A DNA stretch of 64,000 bases from Thermodesulfobacteriota bacterium (GCA_031082315.1 JAVHLC010000011.1:35117-99116); one strand, 5' to 3'; shown: positions 24,584 to 24,728, counted from the stretch's first letter. A program made the numbers and translations. The notes: generated from the letters alone by a model not told the origin.

Positions 24584-24728
24584 AGACTTCTGGATTTTAT
24601 GCTATCGGCTTATCTAGTTGATATTTAAGGATAGTACCTTTTATTGTACTGTTTGCCAAATTGTAGTATCATCGCTTTTATATGCGAGTTTTGATGAAAA
24701 AAGTCGAGTCGATATAATATATAATGTT
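24584..24728 (+). promoter_or_regulatory. Conserved array leader, copy 1 (attI-like right end plus sigma-70-like promoters)
   Basis: About 93% identical to 45257-45400, and similarity ends exactly at GTT (24726-24728). Promoter candidates: TTGTAC-N17-TATCAT (24644-24672) and TTGATG-N16-TATAAT (24691-24718). Confidence 0.6.

What the first reader, a model, noticed from the sequence alone, without database searches (positions are those of the whole stretch)
24584..24728. A ~145-bp leader shared by both arrays ends exactly at the G|TT crossover point: candidate attI plus cassette promoter without an adjacent integrase
Regions 24584-24728 and 45257-45400 are about 93% identical. Similarity stops precisely at GTT, after which the two first cassettes diverge (GTTCGGC versus GTTAAGT). 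That is where an attI x attC junction would be. The leader carries TTGTAC-N17-TATCAT and TTGATG-N15/16-TATAAT, both oriented into the cassettes. It also has paired ATTGTA(C/G)T words and a GTCGAGTCGA-ATAA-AT motif, which is repeated once more upstream of copy 2 (45220-45247). Both leaders sit 30-80 nt downstream of an R1 repeat. Having two identical platforms with no intI next to either is unusual for integrons.
Basis: partly seen in the sequence, partly recalled or inferred. Interest (0 to 1): 0.7.

Follow-up and report, generated by a model that had tools for sequence, protein, structure and literature searches.

The report
Orphan integron insertion site with promoter
Two copies of a 155-210 bp AT-rich leader each sit exactly where the first gene cassette of an integron-type array begins, with a promoter pointing into the cassettes and no integrase gene nearby. 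Related genomes carry the same leader at five or more loci, each followed by different cassettes, so it behaves like a dispersed, integrase-less cassette docking site.

Summary
Window 24584-24728 and 45257-45400 are 90.3% identical (131/145, not 93%). Similarity ends at ...ATAATG|TT.

Each first cassette begins TTxxxx and ends in an attC whose R'' box is the exact complement: GTTCGGC/GCCGAAC and GTTAAGT/ACTTAAC.

The leader occurs in 11 further contigs from related Smithella-like genomes and metagenomes, 8 distinct after pairing the contigs that share the same sequence at the leader. These define five or more loci. Similarity always stops at the same G|TT, and six different first cassettes follow.

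At one orthologous locus, flanks 93-96% identical carry four different first cassettes. One cassette unit is first after the leader in two relatives and internal, after an attC, in window array 1. Homology starts at the TT.

The leader does not fold as single-stranded DNA and has no R'' box, so it is not an attC. Its conserved 3' block holds TTGATG-N16-TATAAT, ending 8 nt before the crossover.

No integrase was found in the 64 kb window or in the upstream flanks that could be read (0.15-12 kb). Best reading: a multi-copy attI-type site with a built-in promoter, served in trans by an unseen IntI. No integrase, binding or transcription start was shown.

The parts
24380..24460 (+). 81-nt relic of the 3' end of the SBF/BASS transporter gene. 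The intact gene is at 33941-34894.
   Evidence: Direct repeat D11: 24380-24460 is 89% identical to 34778-34858. In L002 the intact transporter gene is followed by R1 and a leader.
24459..24552 (+). R1 intergenic repeat: conserved flanks GCATACGGAGATTCCCC...GGGGAGCTTCAA around a variable hairpin. This is the copy upstream of leader 1.
   Evidence: Families D4, D8 and D15; alignment; 4 copies in the window against 0.29 expected by chance.
24572..24726 (+). Leader copy 1, the 5'-short form. It ends at G24726 of the G|TT crossover. 31% G+C.
24592..24607 (+). Conserved 5' block GGATTTTATGCTATCG. It is retained even in the divergent leader L002b.
   Evidence: Alignment of 10 leaders; coordinates.
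24691..24718 (+). Promoter-like TTGATG-N16-TATAAT facing the cassettes. It lies inside the conserved 3' block GATGAAAAAAGTCGAGTCGATATAATATATAATG. A second TATAAT is at 24720-24725.
   Evidence: Promoter scan, 10/12; the block is conserved in all leaders, including L002b.
24726..24728 (+). G|TT crossover point of array 1.
   Evidence: Similarity between all leader copies ends here. R'' GCCGAAC at 25409 is the exact complement of GTTCGGC.
24727..25480 (+). Cassette 1 of array 1: Trypsin_2-like peptidase ORF 24752-25471, attC 25409-25486.
   Evidence: Chain walk; Pfam; attC bottom-strand fold -21.3 kcal/mol.
25481..26416 (+). Cassette 2 (293-aa ORF 25504-26385, no Pfam family). Its attC is disrupted by intron copy 1.
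26417..26919 (-). ORF-less group II intron-like element, copy 1, inserted next to the remaining right half of an attC.
   Evidence: Repeats D1, D2 and D9; Rfam RF02001, 30.5 bits, just under the family's gathering score of 32; flanks read.
26971..27694 (+). Cassette 3 (218-aa ORF 26988-27644). It starts G|TTCGGGC. R'' CCCGAAC is at 27647. Its attC 27647-27700 is degenerate.
27695..27772 (+). ORF-less mini-cassette of 78 nt (TTCCCTCGCG...GGGAAC...GGGCCG). It lies directly behind the leader in L002 and L012.
27773..28215 (+). DUF2703 cassette (starts G|TTGGCT), truncated at its 3' end by the second intron copy.
   Evidence: Pfam PF10865. 95-98% identical to the copies in L002, L012 and L015. In L015 it follows a different attC.
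28216..28695 (-). ORF-less group II intron-like element, copy 2.
   Evidence: Rfam RF02001, 35.1 bits.
28739..29525 (+). Cassette with two ORFs: 28786-29217 (weak match to Nuc_deoxyrib_tr) and 29214-29450. It starts at G|TTATTAT (G at 28738). An attC-like remnant lies at 29464-29531.
   Evidence: The attC here is poorly formed, so the boundary is tentative.
29526..31140 (+). Catalase gene (29567-31075). It is either the last cassette or the array flank. No attC was recognised after it.
   Evidence: Pfam; sequence. The flank shared with L012 resumes at 31141.
45115..45176 (+). Partial R1 repeat upstream of leader 2.
45190..45398 (+). Leader copy 2, full-length form. It ends at G45398. It includes the near-palindrome TTACGTCGAGTCGACATAA at 45215-45233.
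   Evidence: Profile match over model positions 1-212.
45399..45826 (+). Array 2, cassette 1 (115-aa ORF 45427-45774), attC 45769-45832. R'' ACTTAAC is the complement of GTTAAGT.
   Evidence: attC fold z = -4.87.
45827..46307 (+). Array 2, cassette 2 (127-aa ORF 45849-46232), attC 46255-46313. R'' GCCTAAC is the complement of GTTAGGC.
   Evidence: attC fold z = -3.42.
46308..47000 (+). Array 2, cassette 3 (194-aa ORF 46340-46924). R'' GCATAAC at 46932 is the complement of GTTATGC. The rest of its attC is interrupted by a REP-like element at about 46999-47042.

Best explanation
The leader is a double-stranded, attI-type primary recombination site with a built-in cassette promoter. It exists in several orphan copies per genome in a Smithella-like lineage of Thermodesulfobacteriota.

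Inferred mechanism. An integron integrase encoded elsewhere, outside this 64 kb, binds the conserved 3' block (...GATGAAAAAAGTCGAGTCGATATAATATATAATG|TT) and possibly the 5' block (GGATTTTATGCTATCG). It recombines this site with the folded bottom strand of the attC of a circular cassette, cutting between G and TT. The new cassette becomes first in the array.

Inferred expression. The cassette is transcribed from TTGATG-N16-TATAAT. The -10 hexamer ends 8 nt before the crossover, so transcription should start at about the first cassette base. Each cassette brings its own ribosome-binding site.

Rearrangements. Because several platforms lie on one chromosome, platforms and arrays also recombine with each other, which rearranges their flanks.

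Shown here: the junction, the cassette and attC structure, the multi-copy distribution, cassette turnover at the junction, and the absence of an adjacent integrase.

Inferred only: IntI binding, action in trans, the transcription start, and any regulation through the palindromic GTCGAGTCGA motifs.
For: (1) Junction rule. G|TTCGGC pairs with R'' GCCGAAC (attC 25409-25486). G|TTAAGT pairs with ACTTAAC (attC 45769-45832). The next two cassettes of array 2 follow the same rule. The rule also holds in L003a, L003b and L006, and in L001 with one mismatch.

(2) The attCs fold as expected. Bottom strands give -14.6 to -21.3 kcal/mol; z = -3.4 and -4.9 for the two in array 2 and -1.8 for the one in array 1.

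(3) The leader does not fold on either strand (z between -0.3 and +0.9). It has no AAC in its last 140 nt, read directly from the sequence. It therefore behaves like attI, not attC.

(4) The leader was found in L001-L003, L005-L009 and L012, and its last 26 nt open the 1.85-kb contig L011. L004 is a chance hit.

(5) The leader occupies five or more loci. None of the arrays behind them share sequence, apart from the orthologous pairs, duplicate contigs and the one cassette unit noted in point 7.

(6) At locus B the flanks are 93-96% identical, yet w2, L001, L006 and L007 have four different first cassettes.

(7) The mini-cassette plus DUF2703 unit is first behind the leader in L002 and L012. 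In the window it follows an attC. Homology starts at the TT. In L015 the DUF2703 cassette follows yet another attC.

(8) L012 is 97.7% identical to the window across the GlnRS flank. Its array holds the mini-cassette plus one gene cassette. The window has three extra cassettes upstream of that unit and two or three downstream at the same locus.

(9) The divergent copy L002b is about 72% identical overall but keeps the 3' block and the 5' block.

(10) The best promoter-like match lies in the 3' block and faces the cassettes.

(11) The published attI2 core AATAAAATG|TTRRRY (PMC12901181) resembles the ATATATAATG|TT seen here. This is a resemblance only.
Against: No integrase gene or pseudogene was found in the window or in any fetched locus. 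Whether one exists elsewhere in these genomes is unknown. By definition, an attI normally lies next to its intI.

All leader copies descend from one ancestor. The shared junction position is therefore inherited, not independent evidence of site specificity.

Some copies have a damaged crossover: L012 reads GTC and L008 has lost GTT. That fits partial decay.

Copy 2 in the window has a 15-nt promoter spacer.

No transcription or binding data exist.

In L008 a toxin-antitoxin cassette sits at a G|TT with no leader. So cassettes in this lineage can also enter other sites.
Confidence: 0.6

Rival explanations
1. Fossil platforms. The leaders are leftover attI and promoter regions of integrons whose intI was lost. 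They were multiplied and moved by ordinary duplication and homologous recombination. The arrays are now inert clusters of attC sites lacking an integrase (CALINs).
For: No intI near any copy. Damaged crossover triplets in L012 and L008. Several degenerate or interrupted attCs in array 1 and at the end of array 2. CALINs are common, and 95% of them have no recognisable intI pseudogene nearby (PMC4889954).
Against: Four different first cassettes sit at one orthologous locus whose flanks are 93-96% identical. The window and L012 differ by five or more cassettes although their flanks are 97.7% identical. All exchanges are precise to the G|TT and obey the R'/R'' rule. The array 2 attCs are well formed. 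Together these need integrase activity after the strains diverged.
Confidence: 0.2
2. attG-type hot spot. The leader is simply a repeated AT-rich promoter module. It happens to contain a GTT that any visiting integron integrase can use as a non-classical genomic (attG) insertion site, without specific recognition of the leader.
For: IntI inserts cassettes at GWT sites across genomes, and these are expressed when they land near a promoter (bioRxiv 10.1101/2022.09.11.507474). The leader is 31% G+C. A cassette in L008 lies at a G|TT without a leader.
Against: attG sites share no sequence beyond GWT. Here the same 155-210 bp module is used at five or more loci, always at the same G|TT. A 36-nt block abutting the crossover stays conserved even when the middle of the leader diverges to about 72%.
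Confidence: 0.1
3. The leader is the outward-reading end of another mobile element (a transposon or MITE end, or a promoter-bearing cassette) that lands in attC or GTT sites. Under this reading the cassette content behind it would be secondary.
For: It is multi-copy. In L003 and L008 the unit R1 plus leader directly follows the G|TT of a preceding attC. L002 and L003 each carry two leaders in tandem.
Against: The left boundary is ragged and locus-specific: a core gene at locus B, ydjM at locus E, an AAA-ATPase gene at locus C, R1 at loci A and D. There is no transposase, no inverted-repeat partner and no attC half upstream. The leader has no R'' box and does not fold, so it cannot be a cassette's attC. 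There is no match in the plasmid or phage collections.
Confidence: 0.05

Closest known systems
attI site plus Pc promoter of integron platforms (class 1-3 mobile integrons, Vibrio chromosomal integrons)
   Same: A conserved sequence on the 5' side of the first cassette, ending at G|TT. It is double-stranded and not a hairpin. A promoter points into the array. It is AT-rich just before the crossover, like the attI2 core AATAAAATG|TTRRRY (PMC12901181). The first cassette varies between strains.
   Different: No intI lies next to it. There are at least two copies in this window, and five or more loci in the lineage. The conserved unit is 155-210 bp. The -10 box ends only 8 nt from the crossover. 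No sequence similarity to known attI sites was tested or claimed.
[quoted passage not shown] 2016, PMC4889954)
   Same: Short arrays of attC-bounded cassettes with no intI nearby and no intI pseudogene. Both arrays here meet that operational definition.
   Different: CALINs are defined without any attI. Here each array starts with the same conserved leader and promoter, which is shared between arrays and between genomes.
attG genomic insertion sites (Loot et al., bioRxiv 10.1101/2022.09.11.507474)
   Same: Cassettes lie outside a complete integron, at a GTT in AT-rich DNA close to a promoter.
   Different: attG sites are sequence-unspecific (GWT). This is one conserved, repeated module, with a constrained block at the crossover.
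Duplicated or partial attI sites inside arrays (delta-attI-type cassettes; attI1-ORF-attI1; PMC12901181)
   Same: More than one attI-type site can exist in one array. L002 and L003 show leader-cassette(s)-leader arrangements.
   Different: The described cases are in class 1 and 2 integrons that have an integrase. Here the copies are dispersed over chromosomal loci without one.

Membership tests
Complete integron | An integron-integrase gene (intI) adjacent to the cassette array | tested here: not met
   No tyrosine recombinase among the window ORFs (Pfam). No integrase in the 12 kb upstream in L008 or the 3.5 kb upstream of the first leader in L003, nor among the genes called by the source on the 6-kb L012 contig.
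Complete integron | An array of cassettes bounded by attC sites: R''-L''...L'-R', folded bottom strand, G|TTRRRY | tested here: met
   attCs at 25409-25486, 45769-45832 and 46255-46313. The R'/R'' complement rule holds along the arrays.
attI site | Lies at the boundary between the conserved platform and the first cassette, with the crossover at G|TT | tested here: met
   Similarity between all 12 distinct leader copies (2 in the window, 10 elsewhere) ends at G|TT. The same cassette unit lies behind the leader and behind an attC.
attI site | Recombined as double-stranded DNA, with no attC-like hairpin | tested here: met
   ssDNA folding of either strand is no better than shuffles (z -0.3 to +0.9). 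No AAC (R'' box) in the last 140 nt. This shows only the absence of structure; the strandedness of the reaction was not tested.
attI site | Specifically bound and recombined by a cognate IntI, normally encoded in cis | not testable with these tools
   No integrase was identified. It needs whole-genome searches of the source assemblies and recombination or binding assays.
Pc cassette promoter | A functional promoter upstream of the crossover, directed into the cassettes | tested here: inconclusive
   A consensus match, TTGATG-N16-TATAAT (10/12) at 24691-24718, conserved in all copies. The spacer is 15 nt in window copy 2. No transcript data.
CALIN | At least two attC sites with no intI nearby | tested here: met
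   Array 2 has two complete attCs and one partial. Array 1 has one complete attC and several partial or interrupted ones. No intI in the 64 kb window.
attC site (as an alternative identity for the leader) | Imperfect palindrome with R'' (RYYYAAC) and R' (GTTRRRY) boxes that folds as a hairpin | tested here: not met
   and direct reading of the sequence.
attG site | A genomic GWT site with no conserved flanking sequence | tested here: not met
   The flanking 155-210 bp are conserved across five or more loci and several genomes.

The most novel reading that the evidence does not exclude
A distributed integron. One integrase, encoded far away or on another replicon, serves five or more dispersed attI-promoter platforms per chromosome. 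Each platform keeps a short, expressed array. Integrase-mediated exchange between platforms and arrays also reshuffles chromosomal flanks, as suggested by the transporter relic at 24380-24460 and the swapped leader flank relative to L012.
Probability: 0.45. Interest if true: 0.75.

Novelty: new variant of a known kind. Interest (0 to 1): 0.6.

Why it matters
attI sites are known for only a handful of integron classes and are thought of as single sites tied in cis to their integrase. Arrays without an integrase (CALINs) are very common and their origin is debated: decay, rearrangement or insertion at secondary sites.

This lineage offers a concrete, testable case. Integrase-less arrays keep a conserved insertion site and promoter at their head. 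That site is multiplied across the chromosome, and cassettes keep turning over at it between close relatives.

If an integrase acting in trans is confirmed, some CALINs would be working satellite platforms rather than debris. It would also supply a new attI/IntI pair from anaerobic syntrophs.

Tried and rejected
(1) Known RNA families. Rfam with permissive thresholds on both leader regions gave no hit.

(2) Leader as an attC or structured element. It does not fold and has no R'' box.

(3) Leader as part of a plasmid, phage or known mobile element. No blastn match in the plasmid or phage collections. A scan of viral contigs with the 3' motif gave one hit inside a coding region with no further similarity, which is a chance match. 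L004, from a Hermodarchaeota MAG, is likewise a chance 20-mer hit.

(4) Finding the integrase. No recombinase ORF was seen by eye or by Pfam in the window. tblastn with IntI1, recalled from memory, was negative on the window and all loci. The look-ups of cassette neighbourhoods (L011-L015) showed no integrase family either. The more constrained 3' block could therefore not be searched there. In hindsight that was the weaker choice.

(5) Finding the source genome by exact protein look-up. The 136-aa flank protein is not on record. Cassette 1 was found only on a 1.85-kb Logan contig, L011.

(6) A general attC scan. A MAFFT alignment of attCs was unusable for a covariance model because the loops vary in length. 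A relaxed hairpin scan gave mostly false positives. Array boundaries therefore rest on the R'/R'' chain rule and on manual reading.

(7) R1 as the repeat of the nearby IS200-like transposase. Rejected: that gene has its own, different 29-nt inverted repeats.

Full report
**Observation**

Window 24584-24728 and 45257-45400 align with one 1-nt gap and 131/145 identical positions, which is 90.3%. Similarity begins slightly further left, at 24572 and 45245. It ends at ...TATATAATG|TT. After that the sequences are unrelated: GTTCGGCCGG versus GTTAAGTTTC.

A profile built from ten leader copies finds exactly two copies in the window, at 24518-24728 and 45190-45400. The leaders are 31% G+C, against about 50% for the window.

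**The DNA behind both leaders is integron cassette array**

Starting from each G|TT, I looked downstream for the reverse complement of the 7-mer at the junction, followed by a hairpin closing on a GTT.
- Array 1: G|TTCGGC at 24726, R'' GCCGAAC at 25409, attC 25409-25486, R' GTTGGGC.
- Array 2: G|TTAAGT at 45398, R'' ACTTAAC, attC 45769-45832, R' GTTAGGC.
- Next in array 2: R'' GCCTAAC, attC 46255-46313, R' GTTATGC.
- Next in array 2: R'' GCATAAC at 46932. The rest of this attC is interrupted by a REP-like element.

A cassette's first bases matching its own R'' box is what a cassette that once existed as a circle should show.

The attC bottom strands fold as bulged hairpins of -14.6 to -21.3 kcal/mol. 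The z-scores are -3.4 and -4.9 for the two in array 2 and -1.8 for the one in array 1.

The cassette genes are typical of integron cassettes: small, mostly without a known family, each with its own ribosome-binding site. They include a Trypsin_2-like peptidase, DUF2703 and a weak Nuc_deoxyrib_tr match.

Array 1 is more damaged than array 2. Two roughly 500-nt ORF-less group II intron-like copies lie on the minus strand, next to attC remnants. Several of its attCs are partial.

**The leader itself is not an attC**

Neither strand folds better than shuffled sequence, with z between -0.3 and +0.9. There is no AAC in the last 140 nt. Rfam finds nothing.

**Comparative evidence**

An exact 20-mer from the leader core was scanned against 185,579 species-representative genomes and the JGI metagenomes. 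It hit:
- three MAGs: Proteobacteria bacterium SpSt-1152 (two contigs), Smithella sp. Yes70-30, and Thermodesulfobacteriota bacterium Yes70-07;
- four metagenome contigs;
- one chance hit, L004.

A cassette-protein search added a fourth MAG, GCA_028712545.1 (L012), and contig L015. An exact-protein look-up of cassette 1 added L011, a 1.85-kb contig that opens with the last 26 nt of the leader.

In every leader-bearing contig the leader ends at the same G|TT, and different sequence follows: GTTGTAT, GTTTCCG, GTTAGGC, GTTCGCT, GTTCGGT and GTTAGAC. An all-against-all comparison of the arrays finds no shared sequence, with three exceptions:
- L001 and L009 are identical over the compared array;
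- L003b and L008 are orthologous;
- one cassette unit is shared between L002a and window array 1.

The R'/R'' rule holds in L003a, L003b and L006, and in L001 with one mismatch.

The leaders occupy at least five different genomic contexts:
- A: after the SBF transporter gene plus R1 (w1, L002b).
- B: after a 136-aa PhageMetallopep gene (w2, L001/L009, L006, L007).
- C: after an AAA-ATPase gene (L003a).
- D: after an attC plus R1 (L003b, L005/L008).
- E: divergent from ydjM, next to GlnRS (L002a, L012).

**Turnover at the junction**

At locus B the flanks are 93-96% identical, yet the four genomes carry four different first cassettes.

L012 is 97.7% identical to the window across HigBA-GlnRS. 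It also shares the far flank, window 31141-31707. Its array is only leader, a 78-nt ORF-less mini-cassette and DUF2703. In the window, three cassettes precede that unit and two or three follow it.

The mini-cassette joins the leader in L002 (ATAATG|TTTCCGAGCGCG) and in L012. In the window it joins an attC (AAAATCG|TTCCCTCGCGCG). Homology starts at the TT. In L015 the DUF2703 cassette follows a different attC (GCGCG|TTGGCTGAG), which fixes its true start.

The leader's G|TT is therefore interchangeable with an attC's G|TT. That is the property that defines an attI.

**Constraint within the leader**

L002b is the ortholog of window copy 1 by its flank (transporter, R1). It is only about 72% identical across the middle of the leader. 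It still keeps GGATTTTATGCTATCG and GATGAAAAAAGTCGAGTCGATATAATcTATAATG|TT.

The 3' block contains the best promoter-like match, TTGATG-N16-TATAAT at 10/12 (24691-24718). A second TATAAT follows at 24720-24725. With the -10 ending 8 nt before G24726, transcription would be expected to start at about the crossover.

The full-length leader also carries a near-palindrome, TTATGTCGAGTCGACATAA, about 155 nt upstream. It repeats the GTCGAGTCGA motif that sits in the promoter spacer. That would suit either accessory integrase binding or a repressor. I could not test either.

Window copy 1 is more similar to copy 2 (90%) and to L002a (92%) than to its own ortholog L002b. Its left flank is of locus A type, while its array sits at the locus E position of L012. 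An 81-nt relic of the transporter 3' end lies at 24380-24460. I read this as recombination between platforms or arrays. The path is not resolved.

**Integrase**

None was found. All ORFs of 80 aa or more were listed and the larger ones read. Twenty were scanned against Pfam.

The regions upstream of the leaders in other genomes hold ordinary genes:
- up to 12 kb in L008: valS, amtB, glnB and an AAA-ATPase gene;
- 3.5 kb upstream of the first leader in L003;
- the whole pilT region at locus B;
- ydjM and GlnRS in L012.

I could not search the rest of these genomes.

**Interpretation**

The sequence evidence supports an attI-type docking site with a built-in promoter. It is multi-copy and physically uncoupled from any integrase.

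Cassette turnover between near-identical strains argues that an IntI acts, or recently acted, on these sites in trans. Some copies are decaying: GTT has become GTC in L012 and is lost in L008.

Three alternatives are less well supported, for the reasons given under the rival explanations: inert fossils, an unspecific attG hot spot, and the end of another mobile element.

In published terms both arrays are CALINs (PMC4889954). What is new is the shared, conserved and repeatedly used leader at their head.

**Verdict**

This is a new variant of a known kind. Interest is 0.6. The main gap is the unidentified integrase.

Noticed in passing
window 26417-26919 and 28216-28695 (minus strand): Two copies, 92-96% identical, of a roughly 500-nt ORF-less element that matches the group II intron D1-D4 model RF02001 (35.1 and 30.5 bits; the gathering score is 32). 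Each lies next to the remaining right half of an attC, as group IIC-attC introns do. Both flank truncated cassettes.
   Followed up: partly
window 8602-8753, 24459-24552, 41226-41377, 45115-45176; also L002, L003, L008 and L012: The R1 repeat family. It has conserved flanks GCATACGGAGATTCCCC...GGGGAGCTTCAA around a hairpin whose stem sequence differs between copies. The longer copies have an extra internal segment between two TAGCGAGCG repeats. Two copies lie just upstream of the start codons of minus-strand genes (6786-8594 and 39128-41212). No Rfam match. Function unknown.
   Followed up: partly
window 24380-24460 versus 34778-34858: An 81-nt direct repeat, 89% identical. It is a relic of the 3' end of the SBF transporter gene and sits 10.4 kb upstream of the intact gene. 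It brackets array 1 and two minus-strand genes. It suggests a past rearrangement between leader platforms.
   Followed up: partly
window 18985-20090: An IS200-like Y1 transposase fused to a DnaA_C-type HTH domain (ORF 19049-20056). It is flanked by 29-nt inverted repeats (18985-19013 and 20062-20090) that are unrelated to R1.
   Followed up: partly
window 46999-47042; L008 about 9500-9545: A REP-like element, CCCCTGGACACCGGGGTTCACCGGTGTGACGACTTTTGCAAGAG. It interrupts the last attC of array 2. A similar sequence occurs in L008.
   Followed up: no
window 47235-47360: An N-terminal fragment of an AAA-ATPase gene, cut off where the converging ABC-transporter gene ends. In L003 and L008 a different, full-length AAA-ATPase gene lies directly upstream of a leader or a cassette.
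   Followed up: no
L012 3884-4429 (minus strand); L013 and L014: A YdjM-family gene (PF04307) is transcribed divergently from the leader in L012, in the position intI would hold in a classical integron. Larger YdjM-family genes also border DUF2703-containing arrays in the unrelated contigs L013 and L014. This may be coincidence.
   Followed up: no
window 41571-41723, 56554-56696, 62154-62303, 49429-49454, 9864-9889: Intergenic repeats rich in GCTGA units (families D3, D6, D12), plus a TTTCCGGATGAAAAC motif (D16), upstream of several genes.
   Followed up: no
window 51189-51280: A 92-nt near-perfect hairpin built from GTTGACCGTT-type repeats, in the gap between ORFs 49447-51201 and 51319-52293 (-41 kcal/mol as RNA).
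   Followed up: no
window 27773-28215; proteins P0001-P0120: The DUF2703 cassette protein has homologs 70-98% identical in MAGs labelled Desulfovibrionales, Gemmatimonadota, Verrucomicrobia and others. This suggests a widely exchanged cassette gene.
   Followed up: partly
L008 about 11200-11850: A BrnT/BrnA toxin-antitoxin cassette with its own attC sits at a CCCG|TT site downstream of the AAA-ATPase gene, with no leader. The orthologous position in L003 holds a 5'-truncated leader plus a different toxin-antitoxin cassette.
   Followed up: partly
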